Shown here: in pieces, positions 50,158-55,260 of the stretch
Position numbering within the stretch: position 1 is the first letter of the stretch
How the letters are laid out: each line of letters starts with the position of its first letter
Assembly (NCBI GenBank): GCA_009914755.4
Contig: CP068257.2
Location: forward strand, 33,120,001-33,184,000
Direction of reading: 5' to 3'
Source of the DNA: the human T2T-CHM13v2.0 reference genome, Homo sapiens
DNA length: 64,000 nt
The notes under the pieces: generated by a model
Seen by the model: the letters and a program-made list of their open reading frames with translations, nothing else
What the model was told of the DNA's origin: nothing
The model's database searches: none
Made by a program: the position numbers and the translations under genes

Positions 50158-50430
50158 ATTATTATTTTTTAAAACAAGCATTAAAACATGCTTCAGTGCT
50201 CTTTCATATGCAAAGAAGCAACCCTGGGAGCCTGCGCCTTTTCCAGGCCCTCATGCCTTCAGAAGCCAGAGTGTGCTAGGAGCACCGGGGGTGAGGACAT
50301 AGCTTCAGCCTGAAGCTGTTCACTGGAGGTATCTTCCTAGTGTGTGCAGTGGGCCTTACTCAGTTTCCCAACCCTCCATCTCAGAGAAAGACAAAACCAA
50401 TTGGATATGGTGTATGTACTTGTCAAACTG

Positions 50431-50436
50431 TTTATT
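50431..50436 (-). terminator. RUNX1: Candidate distal poly(A) signal, AATAAA on the minus strand, with cleavage expected around 50405-50420.
   Basis: The minus strand reads ggcAAATAAAcagtttgacaagtaCAtacaccatatccaattggttttgtctttctct. This contains a canonical hexamer, a CA about 15 nt downstream, and then a U/GU-rich downstream element. Confidence 0.5.
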
Positions 50437-50911
50437 TGCCATTCACACTGATTGTAACACTGGATTTACAGAAGAAACTGTGGTACAAAGAGAGGAAGGC
50501 TCTGGTGGCTCCTGAACAGCAGCAGTCCAGCTGCCCTGCTCAGGCTGGGCACGACGAATGCTCCCAGGAGAGGGGAGGCGGCCCACCCGACTGTGTACCA
50601 TGGACTGTGGACAGTGCAGTGCCTGCTCTCCTGTGCTATCTAGAAACACCTTGGAGAGAGGGTTCTGGGATATTCTCTCATGTCATCTGGCTGAAGACAC
50701 CAGCTTGACAGTTCCCCTTTAAGAAGCATTCCATACGTTTGTACCAGGGAGAAAGAAGCCCACGCACGAATTTTCAGGATGTTTTGTGACCAAACCCAAT
50801 AACTGCCACACAAATAGACCCTAGGTGGGGGCTGGCTTAAATAGGACCACATTTCCCGTTGCTTTTTCAGTAGATGTGTTATACCGTCATTTCAATTTGA
50901 AAGTTTATTTT

Positions 50912-50917
50912 TTTCCA
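50912..50917 (-). terminator. RUNX1: Alternative candidate poly(A) signal within the 3'UTR (AATAAA on the minus strand).
   Basis: The minus strand reads caatggaaaaaAATAAActttcaaattgaaatgacggtataaca. The hexamer is present but the downstream element is weaker. Confidence 0.3.
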
Positions 50918-52189
50918 TTGATTTTTATACATCCAGAATAACACAAATAACCAACAGTTCTTTTTCTTTTTTTGCACATTCATTTCCCCTAGAACAAAAA
51001 AAGTGAACTTAAAAAAAATTGGAACCATGCTATTAGCTGTTTACAAAAGTGAATAAGAAGTAGCTCATTTTAAAGTCTAAAATAAACAAAGTAGAAAGAA
51101 GCATTTTTTTCCCTACAGTATTTAGCAAACCTAAGAAAAAGTCCTTAGAAACACACACAAAAAAATTGAAAAAAAGTTATAGGCATTAACAATATTTTAT
51201 AATGAAGCTTAAAATCTATTTACATACATAAATACAATTAACTTTGTTGATGCAACTCTTCTGGAAGGAAAAAAAGAGCCAAATGATCAGCCTCATCAAT
51301 ACTGACCTGGCTAAAAACAAAATTCCCAACAAACACACAAAAATCCCAAAACAAATGTATACGCTACGGTAAACAAAAAGGCATTTTGTTCAGATGTAAA
51401 ATATGTTTTGTGAGATTATTGTCAAACAAATTTTCATGTATAAAAGACCCAAACATGTCATTCCCCCCAAAAATAAAAACCAACAAAAATAAAAATCATC
51501 AGGACGGAATGTCCCAAAGAAACAGGTATTTCAAGGCAGAAATCTGCAATCCTAAATTGCAGGACATTTGAGTGGAACCATTCATTTCCTTTCTAATCAG
51601 AGCATTTCTGTTTATCTGCACAGAAACCCAAGGCAGCAGAAAGGCTGTCTATTTACTCACTGATTGTGATTTGCCCAGGAAAGTTTGCTGGTTTGGACAG
51701 CAAGCAGATCCAATATGGTTGGCAATGTCTCTGTTCTGCTGGAAGAAACCCATAAACAGGAGAAAGGCTGACAAACCATGTTCCTTTATGTGAAGGGGGA
51801 AGAACTGGACCTTCTTGTGTTCTGAAATTTGGTACTGGGTGGGGGTATGTGCTATCTGCTTAAGAGAACACAGGAAAAGGAGGAGGGAGAAAGTGGGGTT
51901 TGGAAGATAGAGGAAGAGAGAAAAAAAGGGAGATATTGGGGGGAAGAGAGGGAGGGAAATGTATTTTCAGATAGTGAGAAAAAGAAAGAACTGAAATATG
52001 TATCCATGTTGAAATCATAAATAGGGACATGAGTAAGCAGTAGAAATGGCTTATTCAATACTTCTCCTGGACCAGACACATGCAGTTATTACATGATTGG
52101 CTTAAGGGTCTCATTGATACCTTAACTTTCCTGAGGGCAATGAATAAAAAGATACCTTAATCTACCTGAAGTCAATGAATGCAATTTTT

Positions 52190-52225
52190 CACACACACAC
52201 ACACACACGCACACACACACACATA
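52190..52225. repeat. (CA)n microsatellite inside the RUNX1 3'UTR.
   Basis: cacacacacacacacacgcacacacacacacatac. Confidence 0.85.
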
Positions 52226-54381
52226 CAAAAATGTGTTGCGTGAGACCTATCGCCAAAACAACTACAGTTTGATTTTTTTTGAAACAATTAAATACTATAT
52301 ATGCTGGTAAGAGTCTGTGAAACTCTAAATGACCAATCCAGTGAGCCTACAATAGTGACAAGCCCCCTCCACACATGGCTTTGAGAGTAAAGGTTCAATG
52401 TAAAAGATTATCTAATCAGAGCATGAGGCTGGTTTTGAGTTGGAATATCTTCAGTTAACAGAATTAAACTGAAAAACATAATTTTTTCCTTCATTTTTCT
52501 CCAGCATTTTTGCAGGTCAGACATGGTAACATGTGCTGAAAAAAAACATTTACGTTTAATTTGGGGGAAATGGGCTAATGGTGCTTTTCAGAAATTAAAT
52601 TTTTACATTTGCTGACATTTTATGGTAATTTAGCTGCAAAAATGTAATACGGAATAATATATGAAACTGAGTTGTGGAGGGAATCCTGTCAAAAATGAAA
52701 GTGAATATATTCTGAGTTTGTCCGAGATCTGCTATAGCTCTTCTCTAGATAAGAACGACCTGACAACATAAGCTGCTTTACTCTTTAACTCTTACCAAAG
52801 TGCTACTGCATGTGTGTAAAACAAATAATCAATATATATATAAGAAAACTCAAAAACAAGTTGTTTTAAATAAGTCCAGCTGTTTTTGCTGCCTGCAGCC
52901 AAAGATTTGCCTAATTTGAATGCTTAAATTTATAAAATAAAAATCAAACACTGTTCTGAAGTCCTGCTTTCAAATACTCTTCAGAGTTGACCTGAAATCG
53001 TTTCAACGAATTTTAAGAGGTACGTTAAATAACCACCAGATCATTTGGAGCACACATGTGTCAAAATCAGCAGTTAGTATTTATGAGTTGTACAACAACT
53101 GCATTCTGACCAAATCCTCCAATAAAAATAGTGCCATAAAATTTACAGCGACATTGGATACCTTTGAATTGTAGCCACGGACAGTAGTGACATGAATCTT
53201 TCCTGTCACACTGGTGCACAGGTAAAAGCCCATATACCCCATAGGGTAGGGTCTCAGCCTGGTGAAAGCAACACAAAGATGTTGTTGAGTGAGCAGCACA
53301 GGACAGGGGGTCTCGCACAGGTGGGACCATGTTTTCCCACTTGTCTCCACTGAGGCACACAGAGGCAAATTGACTCCTCGAGGCCTGCTTCTGGTGGGCC
53401 CTTAAATTGCTATAATCGTAACCCCTAAATTCATTGATTTGGTTCCTATGTAAATGTGGCTCCCCTACACAGTTTACTTTGGCTGTGTTCTGTTACACAG
53501 CATCTGTGAAATTATCAGATGACCTTGGGGTGAGCAAATCCCTGGGCAGAAATCAAATCCTCTCCAAAGATGTAATTATTGGCACCTGCCTCAACCCTCT
53601 GGAACTAGATTGACCTTCTCTGTTTTAAGGAGGAAGTTAGATATGAGACCCTTGTTGAGCCTGGCAGAAAATTCCATACTTCTGATCCTTGGAGTGACCC
53701 TCAGTGTCTAAAAATCCTATTAAAAACGTTGCTGCGTGAGCTACTCACTTGTTTGATTAACATGAAAGGGAGTTTAATGTAAACAATACTTCTGGATAAC
53801 CAAGCGATCACATTACTCATTCTTTTTTTCTAGCCTTCTTCAATGTGATACATTTAACTTTGGCTACTATCAAGAACAAAAGAAAATGTAGTACTTGATA
53901 TTTTTCTTAATATAAGTACATTTAAATAATTAAAAAATTATCAACACATAAATGTCTGAACATCAAGATACATAAATATCTGGGGATTCCTTGTGGGAAT
54001 ACAGTAGTTAAAAATGACCCAAAGCTGTAGCTGTTTCTCAAAAAAACAAAACAAAACAAAAAAAAACAACTACCCAAAAGTCCAAAAGAAAAGTTAAATA
54101 AAACTTAAAGAAAAGGGAATCATATTTCTTTCCATGGTCAAAGCAAGAAAGAAGCAAGCTCAATTTATATATATTTATATAAACGTATATAAAAATAAAA
54201 ACCACCCAAATGCAAATACGCATTTTGCAATTGATAAGGTGCGGAAAAATTAAAAATAAGAATTAGATGCCAAACAGGGCGAGTTGCATCCCTCCTCTCC
54301 CCCCACCCCAACCAAAATTCCACACTCTTTGGAATAAACAACTTGGTTAAAAAGTTAAGTCAAGGGTATAAAATCTTTCTT

Positions 54382-54387
54382 TTTATT
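54382..54387 (-). terminator. RUNX1: Possible proximal poly(A) signal about 355 nt after the stop codon (short-3'UTR isoform candidate).
   Basis: The minus strand reads tgctgtgAATAAAaagaaagattttatacccttgacttaac. A hexamer is present. Evidence is weak without transcript data. Confidence 0.25.
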
Positions 54388-54429
54388 CACAGCATTGCTA
54401 AATCAGAAGCATTCACAGTTTCCCTCCGG

Positions 54430-55260
54430 GAATCTTCCTGTTTGCTTTCCAGCGCGTCCCCTGGGTGCTGGGGCCGGCGGACACCCTCGAGGTGCGTCGC
54501 CTCGGACACCTCCGCGAGGGCCGGGGCGCCAGCAGACGGCGGCGGCGTGGGCTTCTGGGCGCAGGAGGCTGCGCGGGCCTGACCTACAGCGAGATCCTGG
54601 CCGTCGGGCGCCCTCGGCCCCAGGACGGTGGCCGGGCCCAGGGCCCGGGATCCCGGCGGGCTTGTCGCGAACAGGAGGCCCGCGCGCCCGGAGGCGAAGG
54701 CGGCGGCCCGCGTGGCCCAGCCGGGCCAGGCCTGGCGCCTCAGTAGGGCCTCCACACGGCCTCCTCCAGGCGCGCGGAGGGCGCCATGTTGGTGGGGGAG
54801 TTGCTGTGGCTGCCCTCGGCCTCCACCACGTCGCTCTGGTTCGGGAGGCTGGGGTTGAGCAGCGCGGAGCCGGTGGAGGCGTTGGTGCAGGGCGGCAGGA
54901 TGCGCGGCGGCGAGCGCTCGCCGCCCACCATGGAGAACTGGTAGGAGCCGGCCGAGGCGCCGTAGTACAGGTGGTAGGAGGGCGAGCTGGCTTGGAACGG
55001 GCCTCCCTGCGCTTGCGACGAGCCGGGGTAGGGCGGCGGCAGGTAGGTGTGGTAGCGCGTGGCCGAGCCCATGGCCGACATGCCGATGCCGATGCCCGAG
55101 GTGACCGGCGTCGGGGAGTAGGTGAAGGCGCCTGGATAGTGCATGCGGGGGTCGGAGATGGAGGGCAGCGCGGGGAACTGGCGCGGGTCGCTGAACGCTG
55201 TCAGGTCGGGTGCCGCTGCAGGGCGGGCAAGAGAACGGAGCGGAAGTGAGTAGGAGGTTG
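54430..55260. promoter_or_regulatory. Intragenic CpG island covering the terminal RUNX1 coding exon and the first ~300 nt of the 3'UTR.
   Basis: Very high G+C and dense CpG runs (gcgcgcccg, cggcggcggcg, ccgcgcg) are present throughout. This explains the multiple long spurious ORFs on both strands here. Confidence 0.6.
54740..55215 (-). CDS. RUNX1: RUNX1 terminal coding exon. It encodes ...(T)[157 protein letters not shown] followed by the stop codon.
   Basis: The minus-strand ORF ends in VWRPY plus TGA (stop = revcomp of 54740-54742). The translation matches the RUNX1/AML1b C-terminus as I recall it. The PPPY and VWRPY motifs are present. An AG acceptor lies at 55216-55217 (minus), preceded by a polypyrimidine tract (minus-strand ctcttgcccgccctgcag). 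The exon starts in phase 1 with 'CG', completing ACG = Thr using an A from the upstream exon. The ORF-track residues upstream of 55215 ([19 protein letters not shown]) are intronic read-through. Confidence 0.9.

What the first reader, a model, noticed from the sequence alone, without database searches (positions are those of the whole stretch)
50410..54739. Long (~4.3 kb) RUNX1 3'UTR with a GC-rich proximal segment, alternative poly(A) signals and candidate miR-27 and miR-17-family seed matches
The minus-strand hexamers AATAAA occur at 54382-54387 (proximal, weak), 50912-50917, and 50431-50436 (best, with CA plus a GU-rich downstream element). This allows several 3'UTR isoforms. Near the proximal end, the mRNA sense reads ggaaACUGUGAAUgcuucugauuuagcaaugCUGUGAAUAAAaag (plus 54386-54420). 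That gives an 8mer and a 7mer-A1 match to the miR-27 seed UCACAGU, with the second overlapping the proximal AAUAAA. The mRNA-sense GCACUUUG at plus 52797-52803 is a 7mer-m8 site for the miR-17/20/106 seed. RUNX1 is a published target of both miRNA families, but I cannot confirm that these exact positions are the validated sites.
Basis: partly seen in the sequence, partly recalled or inferred. Interest (0 to 1): 0.5.

Follow-up and report, generated by a model that had tools for sequence, protein, structure and literature searches.

The report
Human RUNX1 3'UTR, known miRNA sites

Summary
On the minus strand a RUNX-type coding exon ends in ...VWRPY* (TGA at 54742-54740). The 3'UTR runs from 54739 to about 50406.

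Counted from 54739, my seed scan gives these positions:
- miR-27 8mer at 321-328
- miR-27 7mer-A1 at 348-354
- miR-17-family 7mer-m8 at 1937-1943

These are the positions published for the 4334-nt 3'UTR of human RUNX1 NM_001001890 (TargetScan table in PMC4351976). About a dozen other listed sites match as well.

I fetched orthologous loci from desman, vole, great tit and rattlesnake.
- Both miR-27 sites and their 27-nt spacing are invariant in all of them.
- The miR-17 site is invariant from human to bird.
- The distal CAAATAAA is invariant in all. It has two conserved upstream UGUA motifs and lies 25 nt before the RefSeq end.
- The proximal AATAAA (54382-54387) and the middle one are kept only in mammals.

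Seed matches alone are no more than chance would give; conservation is what marks them out. Alternative polyadenylation of this UTR is published, but I could not test which proximal site is used. Novelty: already known. Interest: low.

The parts
54743..55213 (-). Coding part of the last RUNX1 exon (C-terminal RunxI inhibition domain, ends VWRPY). The acceptor position of about 55213 is approximate.
   Evidence: Translation; Pfam PF08504 RunxI, E = 8e-52; tblastn of desman, vole and sparrow RUNX1 fragments.
54740..54742 (-). Stop codon TGA.
50406..54739 (-). Full-length RUNX1 3'UTR, 4334 nt, the same length as the RefSeq NM_001001890 3'UTR.
   Evidence: Positions of about a dozen seed sites counted from 54739 equal those in the published TargetScan table for the 4334-nt UTR. 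Bird and snake homology stops at about 50413-50417.
54440..54739 (-). GC-rich, CpG-rich proximal UTR segment (UTR 1-300).
   Evidence: 79% GC and 42 CpG. The segment is not conserved in length or composition: only 95 nt precede the first miR-27 site in the vole, and the equivalent segment is 32% GC in the snake.
54412..54419 (-). miR-27a/b 8mer site ACUGUGAA (UTR 321-328). It also reads as a miR-128 7mer-A1 site.
   Evidence: TargetScan 321-328, PCT 0.9. Invariant in desman, vole, an unnamed mammal, great tit and rattlesnake.
54386..54392 (-). miR-27a/b 7mer-A1 site CUGUGAA (UTR 348-354). It overlaps the proximal AAUAAA by 2 nt.
   Evidence: TargetScan 348-354, PCT 0.7. Invariant in all species. 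The 27-nt spacing from the 8mer is the same in all six species.
54382..54387 (-). Proximal AAUAAA (UTR 353-358), a candidate poly(A) signal for a short 3'UTR of about 0.38 kb.
   Evidence: Kept in the mammals, but reads AAUGAG in the tit and AAUAAG in the rattlesnake. The downstream 50 nt are U-rich (42% U). There is no upstream UGUA. Use as a cleavage signal was not tested.
54326..54332 (-). miR-9 7mer-A1 site (UTR 408-414).
   Evidence: TargetScan 408-414. Conserved in all five other species.
54235..54242 (-). miR-18a/b 8mer site GCACCUUA (UTR 498-505).
   Evidence: TargetScan 498-505. GCACCTTA is also present in the tit and rattlesnake UTRs.
54000..54008 (-). Overlapping miR-199-3p 7mer-m8 and miR-101/144 7mer-A1 sites (UTR 732-740).
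   Evidence: TargetScan 734-740. The rat table in PMC6912979 shows the same pair.
53773..53785 (-). miR-30 8mer UGUUUACA (UTR 955-962) fused to an AUUAAA hexamer (53773-53778).
   Evidence: TargetScan 955-962, PCT 0.92. The 8mer is conserved through to the snake. miR-30a-5p repression of only the long UTR is reported in PMC12896152.
52797..52803 (-). miR-17/20/93/106 7mer-m8 site GCACUUU (UTR 1937-1943). An offset miR-302/372/520 site lies at UTR 1936-1942.
   Evidence: TargetScan 1937-1943, PCT 0.9 but context+ percentile about 27. AGCACTTTGGTA is invariant in human, desman, vole, the unnamed mammal and great tit.
50904..50909 (-). Middle AAUAAA (UTR 3831-3836), probably a weak or unused signal.
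   Evidence: Kept only in mammals. Downstream U content is only 18%.
50467..50487 (-). Two conserved UGUA motifs (50484-50487 and 50467-50470), 51 and 34 nt upstream of the distal hexamer. UGUA is the CFIm-type upstream element.
   Evidence: TTTGTAC and CTGTA are conserved in all five species.
50431..50436 (-). Distal AAUAAA (UTR 4304-4309), the main poly(A) signal.
   Evidence: CAAATAAA is invariant in human, desman, vole, tit and rattlesnake. It lies 25 nt upstream of the RefSeq end.
50382..50400 (-). U/GU-rich downstream element (uugguuuugucuuucucug) just past the cleavage site.
   Evidence: Similar in the desman; weaker in the vole and the sauropsids.

Best explanation
The interval is the 3' untranslated part of the last exon of human RUNX1 (minus strand, 54739 to about 50406, 4334 nt).

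It works as a post-transcriptional control region. Cleavage and polyadenylation at the deeply conserved distal AAUAAA (50431-50436) gives the long RefSeq mRNA. That signal is helped by two upstream UGUA motifs and a U/GU-rich downstream element. The long mRNA carries a set of conserved microRNA seed sites: two for miR-27/128, then miR-9, miR-18, miR-199-3p/101/144, miR-30 and miR-17/20/93/106. RISC bound at these sites lowers RUNX1 output.

Use of an upstream signal would give a UTR of about 0.38 kb. The most likely upstream signal is the mammal-specific AAUAAA at 54382-54387. That short UTR would keep only the two miR-27/128 sites and lose all the others, so alternative polyadenylation would tune how many microRNAs can act.

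Shown here: the sequence features, their exact agreement with the published TargetScan map, and their conservation. Taken from the literature: repression by miR-27 and miR-17, and the existence of short and long isoforms. Inferred: which proximal hexamer makes the short isoform.
For: Gene identity:
- VWRPY* terminus and RunxI domain.
- The best homologues are named RUNX1.
- 12 Alu heads in the window indicate a primate genome.

Agreement with published maps:
- Site positions counted from 54739 are identical to the TargetScan 6.2 table for NM_001001890, 4334 nt.
- They keep the same order and near-constant offset relative to the rat Runx1 table in PMC6912979.

Conservation:
- blastn of the UTR against orthologous loci shows 71-82% identity over most of the UTR in mammals, and islands of homology in bird and snake that include the miR-27 block and the distal signal. 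The miR-17 block aligns in the bird but not in the snake.
- The miR-27 sites fall in the top 0.6-0.8% most conserved 7/8-mers of the UTR. The miR-17 site falls in the top 2.9%.
- The 27-nt spacing of the two miR-27 sites is invariant.

Poly(A) signal context is.

Literature:
- miR-17/20a/106a and miR-27 regulate RUNX1 through its 3'UTR (PMC3565335).
- A RUNX1 3'UTR luciferase reporter was repressed by miR-17 (PMC4351976).
- CPSF6 loss shifts RUNX1 to a short 3'UTR that escapes miR-30a-5p (PMC12896152). This requires the short form to end before UTR 955.
- The RUNX1 3'UTR shortens on T-cell activation (PMC11094061).
- miR-27 acts on both short and long UTRs, and miR-17 only on the long one (PMC3565335).
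Against: - No 3'-end sequencing data were available, so use of the proximal and middle hexamers is not shown.
- The proximal site lacks UGUA and is absent in sauropsids.
- The two miR-27 seeds lie inside a stretch of about 60 nt that is nearly invariant from human to snake. Their conservation therefore cannot be attributed to miR-27 alone.
- TargetScan gives the miR-17 site a poor context score, about the 27th percentile, so its individual effect may be small.
- I could not read the primary reporter-mutation papers. The only open paper with a mutated miR-27b site in RUNX1 is retracted and I did not use it.
Confidence: 0.95

Rival explanations
1. The seed matches are incidental. The conserved blocks are kept for another reason, such as RNA-binding-protein sites, poly(A) auxiliary elements or an RNA structure, and microRNAs do not act through these exact nucleotides.
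For: - Seed presence alone is not beyond chance.
- 56 seed matches to about 75 conserved families occur in this UTR, close to the roughly 40 expected from its length (the expectation is my arithmetic).
- The miR-27 seeds lie within a longer near-invariant block of about 60 nt.
Against: - No Rfam family reaches threshold, and the block does not fold better than shuffles (z = -0.31).
- In the vole, the sequence just upstream of the miR-17 seed has diverged while AGCACTTTGGTAAGAG is kept.
- The exact 27-nt spacing of the miR-27 pair is kept in six amniotes.
- TargetScan PCT is 0.7-0.9.
- These are the only canonical sites for the two families in a UTR whose reporter responds to miR-17.
Confidence: 0.07
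2. Only the distal poly(A) signal is functional. The proximal (54382-54387) and middle (50904-50909) AATAAA are chance hexamers in AU-rich sequence. The published short isoform ends at some other, non-canonical site.
For: - AATAAA is common in the AT-rich window: 113 copies against 56 expected.
- The proximal and middle hexamers are lost in bird and snake.
- The middle one has a poor downstream region, 18% U.
- All RefSeq-based tables use the 4334-nt UTR.
Against: - The short form must end before the miR-30 site at UTR 955, and the only AATAAA or ATTAAA upstream of that is the proximal one.
- It is kept in all four mammals and has a U-rich downstream region.
- In the vole it would give a UTR of about 0.15 kb. 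That matches my recollection of the shortest mouse Runx1 3'UTR in Ben-Ami 2009, which I could not verify here.
Confidence: 0.25
3. The conserved islands act at the DNA level, for example as an enhancer or chromatin element at the 3' end of RUNX1, rather than in the mRNA.
For: Conservation by itself does not tell DNA function from RNA function.
Against: - Bird and snake homology stops within a few nucleotides of the mRNA 3' end.
- The conserved words are strand-specific RNA signals: AAUAAA, UGUA and seed matches on the sense strand.
Confidence: 0.03

Closest known systems
Human RUNX1 (AML1) mRNA 3'UTR, RefSeq NM_001001890 / NM_001754 (4334 nt), as mapped by TargetScan in PMC4351976 Suppl. Table S1
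   Same: Same length. The positions and flanking sequences are identical for the miR-27, miR-128, miR-9, miR-18, miR-101/144, miR-23, miR-30, miR-214, miR-192/215, miR-141/200a, miR-217, miR-17-family, miR-135, miR-1/206, miR-200bc/429 and miR-139 sites.
   Different: No difference was detected at the sites compared. A base-by-base comparison with the RefSeq record was not possible with these tools.
Rodent Runx1 3'UTR (rat TargetScan 7.1 table in PMC6912979; bank vole locus L002)
   Same: Same order and spacing of the miR-27 (x2), miR-9, miR-18, miR-199-3p and miR-101/144 sites. The proximal and distal AATAAA are also shared.
   Different: The GC-rich leader before the first miR-27 site is about 225-250 nt shorter in rodents: position 68 in rat and 98 in vole, against 321 in human.
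Tandem 3'UTR alternative polyadenylation that removes microRNA sites (the general mechanism cited in PMC12896152; UGUA is the CFIm motif)
   Same: A UGUA-rich, deeply conserved distal site and a UGUA-less proximal site. The reported shift to the short RUNX1 UTR on CPSF6 loss fits that arrangement.
   Different: The proximal cleavage position in RUNX1 was not demonstrated here. One study found no reproducible Runx1 UTR shortening after NUDT21 loss (PMC12868934).

Membership tests
RUNX1 gene, terminal exon | C-terminal RunxI inhibition domain ending in VWRPY, followed by a stop codon | tested here: met
   Translation; Pfam PF08504, E = 8e-52, 174 bits against a cutoff of 27.
RUNX1 gene, terminal exon | Closer to RUNX1 than to the paralogues RUNX2 and RUNX3 | tested here: met
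   Among the top hits, proteins named RUNX1 are 83-99% identical over the exon. Nearly all proteins named RUNX2 or RUNX3 are 53-72% identical.
RUNX1 gene, terminal exon | 3'UTR collinear with the human RefSeq 3'UTR (4334 nt) | tested here: met
   All site positions shared between my scan and the TargetScan table of NM_001001890 are the same, from 321 to 3627.
Canonical conserved microRNA target site (TargetScan definition) | 7mer-A1, 7mer-m8 or 8mer match to miRNA positions 2-8, located in a 3'UTR | tested here: met
   miR-27 8mer and 7mer-A1, and miR-17-family 7mer-m8.
Canonical conserved microRNA target site (TargetScan definition) | Conserved above the UTR background | tested here: met
   The sites fall in the top 0.6-0.8% (miR-27) and top 2.9% (miR-17) of conserved 7/8-mers. 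Published PCT is 0.9, 0.7 and 0.9.
Canonical conserved microRNA target site (TargetScan definition) | Repression is lost when the seed match is mutated, or AGO is shown to occupy the site | not testable with these tools
   The primary papers are not held. Only whole-UTR reporter data are accessible.
Mammalian cleavage/polyadenylation site | AAUAAA or AUUAAA hexamer 10-30 nt upstream of a transcript end | tested here: met
   Distal: the hexamer ends at 50431 and the RefSeq end is at 50406, a gap of 25 nt. For the proximal and middle hexamers the transcript ends are unknown.
Mammalian cleavage/polyadenylation site | U/GU-rich downstream element and upstream UGUA auxiliary motifs | tested here: inconclusive
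   Distal: two UGUA motifs and a G+U fraction of 0.58. Proximal: no UGUA, but 42% U downstream. Middle: one UGUA and 18% U. The compositions are only suggestive.
Mammalian cleavage/polyadenylation site | 3'-end reads or poly(A)-tailed cDNAs ending at the site | not testable with these tools
   No 3'-end sequencing resource is available. The Logan contigs I fetched are genomic.

The most novel reading that the evidence does not exclude
In mammals the second miR-27 site (CUGUGAA) became fused to a new proximal AAUAAA, with a 2-nt overlap. This fusion is absent in bird and snake. Binding of miR-27-loaded Argonaute and binding of CPSF to the same roughly 11 nt could then be mutually exclusive. In that case miR-27 would influence poly(A) site choice, or proximal cleavage would leave a crippled site about 20 nt from the tail, rather than miR-27 acting only as a cytoplasmic repressor.
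Probability: 0.04. Interest if true: 0.5.

Novelty: already known. Interest (0 to 1): 0.08.

Why it matters
RUNX1 dosage is critical in haematopoiesis and leukaemia, and its long 3'UTR is an established hub for microRNA control. That is already in RefSeq, TargetScan and the literature, so this finding adds no new biology. Its value is as a positive control for the scan: a tool-free reading recovered the correct gene, UTR extent, main poly(A) signal and the true conserved miR-27 and miR-17 sites. This check adds a small comparative result. The miR-27 pair, the miR-30 site and the distal poly(A) module are conserved across amniotes, and the miR-17 site is conserved from human to bird. The proximal and middle AAUAAA hexamers are found only in mammals.

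Tried and rejected
- Structured RNA: an Rfam scan of 50200-54800 at E <= 1 found only two sub-threshold chance hits. Folding the conserved miR-27 block gave z = -0.31 against shuffles. I rejected a structured-RNA reading.
- Teleost comparison: the Megalops locus L011 shows no alignable UTR homology and only one non-orthologous miR-27 7mer. 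It was not informative.
- Direct 3'-end evidence: the Logan contigs carrying the last-exon ORF are genomic, with intron sequence upstream, so they give no poly(A) ends.
- Primary literature: Ben-Ami 2009 (PMC2612036) is not held. Fontana 2007 and Feng 2009 are not in the library. The CPSF6 paper has no held supplements, so its short and long primers could not be mapped.
- The only open paper with a mutated miR-27b site in RUNX1 is retracted (PMC7388303), and I did not use it.
- The 284-aa plus-strand ORF at 54395-55249 and the 122-aa minus-strand ORF at 54387-54755 look like stop-free runs in the GC-rich sequence, and I did not treat them as genes. I did not test this.

Full report
**1. What is in the sequence**

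Read on the minus strand, an open reading frame ends ...[12 protein letters not shown] with TGA at 54742-54740. The last 157 residues match Pfam RunxI (PF08504) at E = 8e-52.

In a search of the large protein collection, the closest proteins are last-exon fragments named RUNX1. They come from desman, vole, birds and snakes and are 83-99% identical. Nearly all proteins named RUNX2 or RUNX3 are 53-72% identical.

The penultimate coding exon lies at about 61906-62064, and the last exon begins at about 55213. Twelve Alu 5' heads in the window show that the genome is a primate one.

**2. Check of the stated motifs**

There are exactly three AATAAA hexamers on the minus strand in the interval:
- 54382-54387
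- 50431-50436

ATTAAA occurs at 53773-53778 and 52555-52560.

- The miR-27 8mer ACTGTGAA is at 54412-54419.
- The miR-27 7mer-A1 CTGTGAA is at 54386-54392. It overlaps the proximal hexamer by two bases.
- The single miR-17-family 7mer-m8 GCACTTT is at 52797-52803.

The first 300 nt of the UTR are 79% GC with 42 CpG. The remainder is 37.5% GC.

**3. Is it more than chance?**

Not from presence alone. In 2000 dinucleotide shuffles of the UTR, two or more miR-27 sites arise 8% of the time. One or more miR-17 sites arise 61% of the time. A scan with about 75 conserved miRNA families (seed list from my own knowledge) finds 56 matches, close to what the length predicts. The signal comes from conservation.

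**4. Comparative evidence**

I fetched genomic loci that carry the orthologous last exon:
- Galemys pyrenaicus (L001)
- Myodes glareolus (L002)
- an unnamed mammal from Logan (L003)
- Parus major (L009)
- Crotalus horridus (L010)
- Megalops atlanticus (L011)

With blastn, the human UTR aligns over most of its length in mammals at 71-82% identity. In bird and snake it aligns only in islands. Those islands include 54439-54314 and 50539-50413, and in the bird 53032-52793. Homology in bird and snake stops at 50413-50417, which is at the mRNA end. The tarpon shows no UTR homology.

The alignments show the following:
- Both miR-27 sites are invariant in all species. Their 27-nt spacing is identical in all six.
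- AGCACTTTGGTA is invariant from human to tit, even where the vole has diverged immediately upstream.
- CAAATAAA at the distal site is invariant in all five species compared there. So are two upstream UGUA-containing words (TTTGTAC and CTGTA).
- The proximal hexamer reads AATGAG in the tit and AATAAG in the rattlesnake.
- The middle hexamer is also found only in mammals.

Quantitatively, only 0.6-0.8% of 7/8-mer windows in the UTR are identical in desman, vole, tit and snake together. Only 2.9% are identical through the tit.

**5. Comparison with what is published**

Supplementary Table S1 of PMC4351976 lists TargetScan 6.2 predictions for the 'RUNX1 3'UTR (NM_001001890 - 4334 nt)'. It includes these sites:
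- miR-27a/b at 321-328 (8mer, PCT 0.9) and 348-354 (7mer-1A, PCT 0.7)
- miR-128 at 321-327
- miR-9 at 408-414
- miR-18 at 498-505
- miR-101/144 at 734-740
- miR-30 at 955-962
- miR-17/20/93/106/519d at 1937-1943 (7mer-m8, PCT 0.9, context+ percentile about 27)
- an offset miR-302/372/520 site at 1936-1942
- further sites out to 3627

Every one of these positions equals the position I obtain by counting from window 54739. The quoted flanking sequences also match the window. The window is therefore the human RUNX1 3'UTR in exact register. A 4334-nt UTR ends at window 50406, which is 25 nt past the distal hexamer.

The rat TargetScan table in PMC6912979 shows the same sites in the same order. Its positions are shifted by about 253 nt because the GC-rich leader is shorter in rodents. 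In the vole the first site is at position 98.

Other relevant literature:
- A miR-27 site in mammalian Runx1 and one in lamprey RunxB have already been discussed (PMC4236176).
- The review PMC3565335 summarises the Fontana (miR-17/20a/106a), Ben-Ami and Feng (miR-27) experiments. It states that miR-27 acts on short and long UTR forms and miR-17 only on the long form.
- A luciferase reporter carrying the RUNX1 3'UTR was repressed in miR-17-expressing cells.

**6. Polyadenylation**

The distal site has every feature of a strong site:
- a canonical hexamer
- two UGUA motifs at -51 and -34
- a U/GU-rich tract at 50382-50400
- conservation across amniotes

The proximal site has a canonical hexamer and 42% U downstream, but no UGUA. 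The middle site has only 18% U downstream.

Alternative 3'UTR forms of RUNX1 are published. CPSF6 knock-down shifts RUNX1 to a short, more stable form that escapes miR-30a-5p (PMC12896152). The UTR also shortens on T-cell activation (PMC11094061). One NUDT21 study could not validate shortening (PMC12868934).

The short form escapes the miR-30 site at UTR 955. The only AATAAA or ATTAAA upstream of that position is the proximal hexamer. I therefore infer that the short form ends about 20 nt after 54382, giving a UTR of about 0.38 kb that keeps only the miR-27/128 sites. This step is inference. No 3'-end data could be consulted.

**7. Alternatives considered**

- A structured RNA or known RNA family is not supported.
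- A DNA-level element is unlikely. The conserved words are sense-strand RNA signals, and sauropsid homology stops at the mRNA end.
- The seeds could be conserved for a reason other than miRNA binding. This cannot be fully excluded for the miR-27 pair, which lies in a near-invariant block of about 60 nt. The published functional data and the preserved spacing argue against it.

**8. Verdict**

Everything is already annotated and published, so novelty is 'already known' and interest is low.

The only non-trivial residue is the mammal-specific fusion of the second miR-27 site with the proximal AAUAAA. It invites a speculative competition model, to which I give a low probability.

Noticed in passing
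window 55290-55860: A GC-rich minisatellite with a 34-nt unit and about 17 copies (68-78% matches) lies in the last RUNX1 intron. It ends less than 100 nt upstream of the last exon's acceptor. When translated it gives a repeated 'HPGWSPSS'-like pattern.
   Followed up: partly
window 52190-52227: A (CA/GT)19 microsatellite lies inside the 3'UTR at UTR 2513-2550. The vole UTR has a GT-type repeat near the equivalent place, and the blastn matches to it are in the inverted orientation.
   Followed up: no
window 53773-53785: The conserved miR-30 8mer UGUUUACA is fused to an AUUAAA hexamer (UGUUUACAUUAAA). This is a second case in this UTR of a seed site overlapping a poly(A)-type hexamer. The AUUAAA is kept in mammals only.
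   Followed up: partly
window 54440-55270: The coding end of the last exon and the first 300 nt of the UTR form a CpG-rich block (UTR part 79% GC, 42 CpG). The UTR part varies greatly in length between lineages: 95 nt precede the first miR-27 site in the vole, about 310-320 in the other mammals and 420-490 in sauropsids. It is not GC-rich in the snake.
   Followed up: partly
window 50139-50157: An Alu 5' head on the minus strand lies about 250 nt downstream of the RUNX1 poly(A) site. In all, 12 Alu heads are present in the window.
   Followed up: no
window 50373-50405; L001 18565-18599: In the desman, sequence similarity continues about 30 nt past the cleavage site, through the U/GU-rich downstream element. 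In bird and snake it stops at the cleavage site.
   Followed up: no
L011 13526-17020: In the tarpon the gene downstream of runx1 carries a DONSON domain (Pfam PF27662) on the same strand, starting about 4.5 kb after the stop codon.
   Followed up: no
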